The notes below the pieces were generated by a model, which did no database searches, was not told where the DNA came from, and worked only from the letters and a program-made list of their open reading frames with translations. Of a DNA stretch of 64,000 nt, positions 5,021-5,663 are shown piece by piece. The stretch spans positions 6,448,001-6,512,000 of the forward strand of contig OX597840.1 in the NCBI GenBank assembly GCA_951406725.2. The letters run 5' to 3'. A program made the translations under genes and the position numbers. Each line of letters begins with the position of its first letter. The stretch's first letter is position 1. The stretch is from Octopus vulgaris. Lineage: Eukaryota.

Positions 5021-5058
5021 TCTTTCTGTTGAAGAGCGTAGGCTCGAAACGTTAAAGA
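5021..5058 (+). ncRNA. minimal hammerhead-like motif, family B (CTGTNGA core)
   Basis: TCTTT-CTGTTGA-a-GAGCgtagGCTC-GAA-ACGT-T|AAAGA. Relatives on the minus strand at 5285-5322, 29403-29440, 46045-46081 and 63559-63595. Confidence 0.55.
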
Positions 5059-5155
5059 CTTGTTTTATTTATATTTCCTGAGCGCCATACTAATACAATT
5101 GTTTGTTTGTTTTCCACCTGCCTTCGTCTTTTGTCTATTTTCATAAAGCTTCCCG

Positions 5156-5192
<37 letters not shown>

Positions 5193-5663
5193 GGGAGAAT
5201 TCACGAAAAAAAAAACAAAAGACGAAGACAGGTGGTGTACAAAACAAACAGATTTATTAGTATAACGCTCAGGAATTGAAAAAGTCTTCTACGTTTCGAG
5301 CCTACGCTCTTCTACAGAAAGGGACACTGAAAAAACAAGGAGAGAAACAAGGAGAGAAAAAATGTGTGTAGTAGCTACCGATCTATCATGGCGACTGCCG
5401 GACAGAAGGGTCACACAGGAGAGTGAAGAAGTAAGGATATTAACAAAGTAGAACAGAAAGTAGAGGAGAGTTTAGAAAGTATAAAAATAATAGTAATAAT
5501 AATAATAGTTTTATGTAAAGTTCAAAGGTTTCAGACATAGTGGTGTATTGCAAGGATTTCTCATCAAGAGTGATCCGTATGTAGGAGAGGTGCAGCCGGA
5601 GGGTAAAATGTCCAAAAGAGTATCCGTAACGGGTAGAAAGGTAGAAAGTCCAGTGGAGAGATA

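What the first reader, a model, noticed from the sequence alone, without database searches (positions are those of the whole stretch)
5021..5322. Family B: hammerhead fold with a fixed non-canonical core CUGU(A/U)GA (A6U)
Four dispersed, diverged copies (5021, 5285, 29403, 46045) keep stem I, GAGC/GCTC stem II and GAAACGTH, yet read CTGTTGA or CTGTAGA where the consensus is CUGANGA. A fifth copy (63559) also has U6 but lost G8. Position 7, which is free in hammerheads, varies while U6 is constant. This argues for a replicated variant rather than decay after insertion. Two subfamily copies face each other across a (TA)n tract at 4946-5395.
Basis: partly seen in the sequence, partly recalled or inferred. 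Interest (0 to 1): 0.72.

Follow-up and report, generated by a model that had tools for sequence, protein, structure and literature searches.

The report
Penelope retrotransposon hammerhead with fixed U6
These repeats are ends of a young, abundant Penelope-like jumping gene whose hammerhead RNA motif has U instead of the usual A at a core position in nearly all of its thousands of copies; it is likely a slowed self-cutting RNA, but cutting is untested.

Summary
Confirmed. The five motifs are minimal type I hammerheads in 5'-truncated terminal repeats (pLTRs) of a Penelope-like retrotransposon (RT, Zn-linker, GIY-YIG).

Genome-wide, position 6 is U in 16,012, C/G in 433 and A in 189 of 16,634 matches. 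All 10 long-ORF elements fetched carry U6. Across nine subfamilies, 0 of 34 hammerhead columns changed against 51 of 120 flank columns; N7 changed 5 times and H17 3 times. U6 is therefore replicated and the motif is under selection.

Not shown: that it cleaves, or that U6 itself is selected. Copies show no excess of starts at the cut site. About half of those reaching a shared 5' start end there, so uncut RNA is likely often copied, as in canonical-core sister copies. Sister families fixed U4C (11,016 matches).

Best reading: an attenuated, probably protein-assisted ribozyme (0.55). The facing pair is two independent insertions, not a dimer. I found no natural A6U in searchable papers; Lunse 2017 was unavailable. 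This scan noted the variant before in other windows of this genome.

The parts
4943..5156 (+). 5'-truncated pLTR copy, youngest subfamily (N7=U, H17=U); begins near the shared 5' start point
   Evidence: 97-98% identical to the pLTRs of intact element L271; at least 13 other genomic copies 100% identical over 4946-5137
5021..5058 (+). Minimal type I hammerhead: stem I 5021-5025/5054-5058, C3 5026, U6 5029, extra A 5033, stem II 5034-5045, G12 5046, ACGU palindrome 5049-5052, predicted cut 5053|5054
   Evidence: cut site inferred from the hammerhead numbering
5157..5189 (.). (TA)n tract between the 3' ends of two copies; likely insertion target
   Evidence: most fetched copies end in (TA)n
5191..5451 (-). 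pLTR copy of the A7 subfamily, tail to tail with the first
5285..5322 (-). Hammerhead motif, C3 5317, U6 5314, A7, H17=A
29304..29516 (-). pLTR copy, youngest subfamily, 213/213 identical to a pLTR of intact element L271; hammerhead 29403-29440, U6 29432
45953..46110 (-). pLTR copy, A7 subfamily; hammerhead 46045-46082, U6 46074
63471..63663 (-). Older pLTR copy; hammerhead 63559-63596, U6 63588, G8 changed to T in this copy only

Best explanation
The motif is a minimal type I hammerhead in both terminal repeats of a recently amplifying Penelope-like retrotransposon, with A6 replaced by U in the whole family; it is likely a slowed ribozyme that still cleaves occasionally, probably only when the element's own protein or a second copy helps it fold. 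SHOWN: location in both pLTRs of long-ORF elements, fixation of U6, conservation of the motif except N7 and H17, and copies whose 3' ends lie about 90-110 nt downstream of the motif. INFERRED: transcription starts about 70-85 nt upstream of C3 and reverse transcription starts about 100 nt downstream of the motif, so the enzyme must read through it and uncut RNA is a normal template. Fast cleavage would cut the template short, so selection would keep the fold and catalytic G8/G12 but tolerate or favour a slower core. U6 would lose A6's core contacts and is predicted to add a competing U4-G5-U6 : A15.1-C15.2-G16.2 helix in the monomer. The purpose of the residual cleavage (releasing unit-length RNA from read-through transcripts, then ligation to a circle) is the published hypothesis for this class and is untested here.
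For: Parent element: RVT_1 hit E 1.3e-7 and a weak GIY-YIG hit E 0.02. 111 scored RT matches are 97-100% identical. 10 of 10 long-ORF elements, chosen for long open frames (1132-1214 aa stop to stop), have U6 in the 3' pLTR and 8 of 10 also retain a 5' pLTR with U6. Constraint: nine hand-grouped subfamilies (112 of 142 copies; divergence 0.116 to 0.007) show 0 of 34 hammerhead columns changed versus 51 of 120 flank columns, Fisher p 1.7e-7. N7 changed 5 times and H17 3 times (A/U, never G), the two positions the hammerhead consensus leaves free (automatic clustering gave 0/26 versus 37-54/125). Ascertainment checks: core left free, 16,634 of 19,652 matches keep it; stem II left free, 590 extra matches, mostly single mutants in the 100 shown; copies found by flank only, U6 in 24 of 26 and 11 of 12 in 400 kb of neighbouring DNA; contigs of four runs with four organism labels differ at 3% or more inside the motif only at N7, a loop CpG and H17. 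Stem I covaries between sister families (G-C in A, C-G in B). Precedents: natural A6C cleaves slowly (kobs below 0.1 per min, PMC3088659; 0.004-0.05 per min in 1-3 mM Mg and 0.3 per min in Mn, PMC7151607); U4C still permits viroid infectivity (PMC3088659); the anole Poseidon hammerhead cleaves only with the element's protein and uncut RNA is the main template (PMC11167929).
Against: No cleavage was measured. In a full mutational scan all single mutants of the CUGA turn had low activity and none was rescued except the 3-8 swap (PMC9901934, passages). Copies starting at the cut site are not enriched: of 25 distinct loci read in context, 8 were CpG-decay artefacts and the 17 true breaks split 7 at or below the cut and 10 above it. 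Stem II and its loop are invariant within the family with no compensatory change, which fits sequence-specific protein or DNA recognition as well as catalysis. The predicted monomer prefers the competing helix (mean probability 0.52 in 56 U6 copies versus 0.09 in 24 natural A6 copies); the palindromic stem III duplex is only -1.7 kcal/mol and the active dimer is not the cofold minimum. A folded but dead motif could also leave N7 and H17 free.
Confidence: 0.55

Rival explanations
1. The motif no longer cleaves. It is kept as a hammerhead-shaped binding site for the element's protein, or as part of the internal promoter, and U6 marks the loss of catalysis.
For: Low activity of CUGA mutants (PMC9901934). 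No cut-site starts. About half of the copies that reach the shared 5' start end there and span an intact motif. Loop and stem II invariant without covariation. Catalytic mutants did not affect insertion in vitro for anole Poseidon (PMC11167929). Sister families fixed another core change, U4C.
Against: Variation is confined to N7 and H17; H17 uses A and U in subfamily consensuses and C in some old copies, never G as a consensus, the cleavage-site rule. G5, G8, A9 and G12-A14 never changed. A DNA promoter element would not need stem I and stem II pairing or the A/B stem I covariation.
Confidence: 0.3
2. Neutral relic: A6U inactivated the ribozyme in a founder element, which spread for other reasons, and the motif is merely inherited.
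For: U6 alone needs no selection: one site stays unchanged about half the time at 0.67 changes per site. Craig 2021 suggests hammerheads may simply parasitize PLEs (PMC8557442, passage).
Against: 0 of 34 versus 51 of 120 columns changed; the motif holds the longest invariant run (22 nt; next 12 nt).
Confidence: 0.07
3. Family B RNA is only a substrate, cut in trans by canonical-core RNA (family A or the rare A6 copies), or the facing pair works as a unit.
For: All families share the ACGU palindrome that forms stem III between molecules; about 7,600 canonical-core motifs exist.
Against: The enzyme half of B (C3-A9, stem II, G12-A14) is as invariant as the substrate half. An A-B hybrid would have only 3 stem I pairs. 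The facing copies are on opposite strands and of different subfamilies, so one transcript holds one sense and one antisense motif.
Confidence: 0.05

Closest known systems
Minimal type I hammerheads (min-HHR) in pLTRs of metazoan Penelope-like elements (Cervera and De la Pena 2014, PMC4209133; read: abstract, results, discussion, part of methods, supplement file 2 part 2)
   Same: Position in both pLTRs, U-rich 5' flank, short stem I, extra base between A9 and G10.1, G10.1-C11.1, palindromic 15.2-16.2, no stem III, mostly solitary truncated copies.
   Different: All 44 alignment rows seen have A6 (their descriptor required the core); the only core variant in those rows is at the 3-8 pair. No octopus entry among the rows seen.
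Poseidon hammerhead of Anolis carolinensis (Frangieh 2024, PMC11167929; read: main text and methods)
   Same: Hammerhead about 100 nt upstream of the RT start; uncut RNA is the main template; no reads ending at the cut site.
   Different: Canonical A6; shown to cleave with the element's protein; Penelope/Poseidon clade, whereas this element has the CX4CxxC linker of Neptune/Nematis type.
Natural A6C hammerhead of phage Bcep176 (Perreault 2011, PMC3088659, passages; Naghdi 2020, PMC7151607, results, discussion and methods)
   Same: Natural pyrimidine at position 6; slow in Mg.
   Different: C not U; one phage sequence rather than a family of over 16,000 copies; activity measured and rescued by Mn.
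Small PLE hammerhead variants of Lunse, Weinberg and Breaker 2017 (PMC5785218; text not held; known only from citing passages and recall)
   Same: Reduced stem III, PLE association, dimer cleavage.
   Different: Unknown: I could not check whether A6U sequences are in that collection.

Membership tests
Penelope-like elements, C-terminal EN+ | Single ORF with RT followed by GIY-YIG endonuclease | tested here: met
   RVT_1 E 1.3e-7; GIY-YIG E 0.02, below the curated cut-off; DKG, YIDD and YIG motifs in one 1132-1214 aa frame in 10 of 10 selected elements
Penelope-like elements, C-terminal EN+ | Direct pseudo-LTRs flanking the ORF, each with a hammerhead | tested here: met
   Two motifs about 4.5 kb apart in 8 of 10 selected elements and in L032; pLTR repeat by self-BLAST
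Neptune or Nematis clade | CX2-5CxxC linker between RT and EN; microsatellite targeting | tested here: met
   CX4CxxC present; definition from PMC8557442 passages; (TA)n flanks
Neptune clade specifically | RT phylogeny with reference PLEs | not tested
   No reference sequences were fetched
Minimal type I hammerhead of PLEs | Stem I, extra base 9/10.1, stem II with G10.1-C11.1, GAAA, palindromic N-N, UH | tested here: met
   consensus line
Hammerhead ribozyme (consensus core) | C3 U4 G5 A6 N7 G8 A9 core | tested here: not met
   U6 in 16,012 of 16,634 matches; every other core position matches
Hammerhead ribozyme (consensus core) | Site-specific self-cleavage after H17 | not testable with these tools
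   Only contigs were offered, no raw RNA reads; indirect breakpoint test showed no peak
Hammerhead ribozyme (consensus core) | Covariation of helices | tested here: inconclusive
   None within family B (invariant); one compensatory stem I pair between families A and B
Non-LTR retrozymes | Head-to-tail tandem repeats of 200-400 nt units without ORF | tested here: not met
   Family B copies in the window are dispersed truncated pLTRs of an ORF-bearing element

The most novel reading that the evidence does not exclude
U6 is an adaptive brake. This Penelope clade has fixed slowing core changes three times (A6U in B; U4C separately in young A and young C subfamilies) because the RT must read through the ribozyme. 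The U6 form is a gated hammerhead, held off by a U6-dependent helix whose strength N7 tunes, and switched on by the element's protein or by Mn. Variant cores would then outnumber canonical ones about 3.5 to 1 in this clade, and core-strict searches would miss most of them.
Probability: 0.2. Interest if true: 0.8.

Novelty: new variant of a known kind. Interest (0 to 1): 0.5.

Why it matters
What hammerheads do in Penelope-like elements is stated to be unclear (PMC8557442), and catalytic mutants did not block insertion in vitro (PMC11167929). This family is a natural experiment: an element that is still amplifying has carried a change at a near-invariant core base through nine subfamilies while keeping the rest of the motif. 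Natural A6 copies of the same subfamilies exist as controls. If U6 cleaves, the hammerhead core consensus widens and descriptor searches are missing large families. If it does not, the motif is conserved for a non-catalytic job. Either result bears on the open question. The element class and the motif architecture are already published.

Tried and rejected
1. Cut-site breakpoint test. A hand tally of the first 100 of 342 rows suggested a peak at the cut. Reading 25 distinct loci in context showed 8 were intact motifs with double CpG decay; the other 17 gave no peak (7 versus 10). One search showed that TA microhomology alone makes a peak at the loop. Rejected as evidence for cleavage.

2. RNA evidence. 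No RNA holder listed on record and only contigs offered. Depth differences are not interpretable and are not used.

3. U6 motifs outside this genome. Metagenome (39 loci) and viral (85 stretches, 80 listed) scans: 6 of 119 matches passed a stem filter, all the same sequence, which reads as an open frame and is probably coding. Rejected. These collections hold few animals, so the blank says little.

4. One shared off-helix for A6U and U4C. The helix is predicted for U6 (0.52) but not for family A with C4 (0.00 in 13 copies). Rejected as a common cause.

5. Uncut template as a U6-specific trait. Canonical-core family A copies also share a 5' start about 80 nt upstream (by eye). Not specific.

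6. Folding z-scores of the five 61-mers tested were -0.98 to 0.52: no support from stability alone.

7. Literature. No paper held 'hammerhead ribozyme' + 'A6U' + 'catalytic core'. One search (CUGUNGA, CUGUUGA, CUGUAGA, A6U) listed 21 of 23 papers, none on this subject by title. Searches found no octopus PLE hammerhead paper. Lunse 2017 and two structural reviews were not held; file 1 of the Cervera supplement could not be searched and only part 2 of 3 of file 2 was read.

8. Rows dropped: 2 script edge artefacts and 3 truncated hits; 2 truncated or deleted hits (4 of the 12 kept are one duplicated insertion); 30 of 142 copies not assigned to a subfamily.

Full report
OBSERVATION. The five motifs are present as described, with C3 at 5026 (+), 5317, 29435, 46077 and 63591 (-). 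They read C3 U4 G5 U6 N7 G8 A9, an extra A, a 4-bp stem II closed by a 4-nt loop, G12 A13 A14 A15.1, a C-G palindrome, U16.1, H17 and a 4-5 bp stem I. The 63591 copy has lost G8. Copies 5026 and 29435 are 97.6% identical and copies 5317 and 46077 91% identical, so the window samples three subfamilies. The window lies in a 2.8 Gb genome of 227 contigs; that it is an octopus comes from earlier scan notes and my recall, not from a test.

WHAT CARRIES IT. A DNA search with 4946-5137 gave 40 scored matches of 900 candidates, all 99-100% identical. Most copies end in (TA)n; two ran on into further sequence. Those loci hold an element with direct terminal repeats around an ORF. The ORF has an RT domain (RVT_1, E 1.3e-7) and a weak GIY-YIG match (E 0.02). 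The RT finds 111 scored matches at 97-100% identity. I fetched 10 of these, chosen for long open frames: all have DKG, YIDD, a CX4CxxC linker and YIG in one 1132-1214 aa frame; all 10 have the U6 motif in the 3' repeat and 8 also in the 5' repeat, about 4.5 kb apart. This is a C-terminal-endonuclease Penelope-like element with the Neptune/Nematis linker (definition from PMC8557442 passages). The window copies are truncated pLTRs; the 29435 copy is 213/213 identical to a pLTR of L271.

IS U6 THE FAMILY STATE? With stem II fixed, position 6 is U in 16,012 matches, A in 189 and C or G in 433 (14 of the first 100 are G). A6 is 1.1%, below the transition class, and A6 copies fall across all subfamilies of the tree, as post-insertion mutants would; five A6/A7 copies group together, which may reflect the shared letter. 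All four bases occur at N7 in the 100 rows shown. Leaving the core free gives 19,652 matches, so 84.6% keep the six fixed core letters, about 2.7% loss per site. Leaving stem II free adds 590 matches, mostly single mutants; loop mutants number 1,981 and are mostly CpG decay in the rows shown. Copies found only by their downstream flank have U6 in 24 of 26 (including the five window copies) and 11 of 12 in 400 kb of neighbouring DNA. Contigs of four runs with four organism labels, laid at 80% likeness, show differences of 3% or more inside the motif only at N7, the loop CpG and H17.

IS THE MOTIF UNDER SELECTION? The tree of 142 copies is a ladder of successive subfamilies (bootstrap not fully settled). 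I grouped 112 copies into nine subfamilies by hand from that tree; mean divergence from consensus falls from 0.116 to 0.007. Along the ladder the 120 flank columns took 80 changes (51 columns changed). The 34 columns from 2.4 to 1.4, leaving out N7 and H17, took none (Fisher p 1.7e-7). N7 changed 5 times and H17 3 times, between A and U. Automatic clustering gave the same contrast (0 of 26 versus 37-54 of 125). Caveats: the flanks are T-rich and partly hard to align, and most copies were collected by motif patterns; the checks above address the second point. The result shows constraint with a hammerhead-like pattern. It does not show that U is preferred at position 6: at 0.67 changes per site one column stays unchanged about half the time; against N7's rate the chance is about 0.03 (arithmetic).

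SISTER FAMILIES. Families A and C share flank motifs and stem II with B and pair stem I with a swapped base pair. They keep A6, and with the published consensus this polarises the change as A to U (inference; tree, midpoint rooted). Of 18,627 A6 motifs of this shape, 11,016 have C4. C4 occurs in a family A subfamily and in a nested family C group whose older relatives have U4, which suggests at least two origins. Canonical cores (about 7,600) are thus a minority beside 16,012 U6 and 11,016 C4.

DOES IT CUT? Not testable directly; no raw RNA reads were offered. Copy 3' ends lie 90-110 nt past H17 in 30 of 45 copies scored (11 had no TA flank in range). Cleaved linear RNA would give copies starting at the cut; none were enriched once CpG artefacts were removed. 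Instead, of 80 of 167 copies that keep a conserved motif 65-80 nt upstream of C3, the script called 36 as ending just 5' of it (30 of 60 not chosen for youth; a few miscalls each way by eye, and four rows are one duplicated insertion). Three of the five window copies start there. Several end at the A of a sequence resembling the invertebrate initiator (motif recalled), so I infer a transcription start. Such copies are most simply cDNAs of uncut RNA. Canonical-core family A copies show a similar shared start, so this is a clade trait. It matches anole Poseidon, where RT starts internally, uncut RNA is the main template and the hammerhead cleaves only with the protein (PMC11167929). Folding predicts that U6 adds a competing helix in the monomer (0.52 versus 0.09 for natural A6 copies; 0.79 with U7, 0.24 with G7) and that the dimer stem III is weak. 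Published mutants point to low but not always zero activity: natural A6C below 0.1 per min (PMC3088659), rescued by Mn (PMC7151607); all CUGA single mutants low (PMC9901934).

THE FACING PAIR. The copies at 4943-5156 (+) and 5191-5451 (-) meet tail to tail at one (TA)n tract, are 80% identical and belong to subfamilies of different age. Two independent insertions into a preferred target explain them. A transcript would hold one sense and one antisense motif and fold into a long hairpin, not a dimer (inference).

VERDICT. Best explanation (0.55): a slowed, probably protein-assisted hammerhead kept under selection in an element whose RT must read through it. Rivals: conserved but non-catalytic motif (0.30), neutral relic (0.07), substrate for trans cleavage (0.05). 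It works like, and has the architecture of, the published PLE minimal hammerheads, but fails the A6 criterion, so I file it as a new variant. I found no natural A6U or the Cervera rows seen; Lunse 2017 could not be read and may contain it. Earlier notes of this scan report the same variant in other windows of this genome; they are not independent support. Added here are the genome counts, the subfamily ladder test, the negative cut-site test and the evidence for uncut templates. Interest 0.5.

Noticed in passing
window 3861, 39487, 41289 (family A) and 35909, 38338, 39681 (family C), minus strand, GAAA positions: Sister Penelope families with C instead of U at core position 4; 11,016 such motifs genome-wide, probably two or more origins.
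   Followed up: partly
window 36247-46691: Six tRNA-Gln(TTG) genes; five lie in a region that also holds repeated family C plus family A hammerhead elements joined head to tail, apparently a local multi-kilobase duplication.
   Followed up: no
window 17051 (-) and 49964 (+): Two type I hammerhead-like motifs with a longer stem III, unrelated to families A-C; the second starts with U3.
   Followed up: no
window 4943-4955 and equivalent sites in L003-L440: Shared 5' end of about half the family B copies that reach it, just before a conserved CGCCATG, at an initiator-like sequence; likely the transcription start.
   Followed up: partly
L031:3279-6843 (G000:C9): Internally deleted element lacking most of the RT but keeping both U6 pLTRs, 2.6 kb apart.
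   Followed up: partly
L123:1500, L124:1500 (G000:C1): Two old family B copies share a UUCG loop and a U-U mismatch in stem II; possibly a small old subfamily.
   Followed up: no
L425:7162 (G000:C27): Old family B-like copy with A6; either a back mutation or a remnant of an A6 ancestor.
   Followed up: no
window 5918, 19607, 22493: A different dispersed repeat that contains GAAACGTT without a hammerhead core upstream.
   Followed up: no
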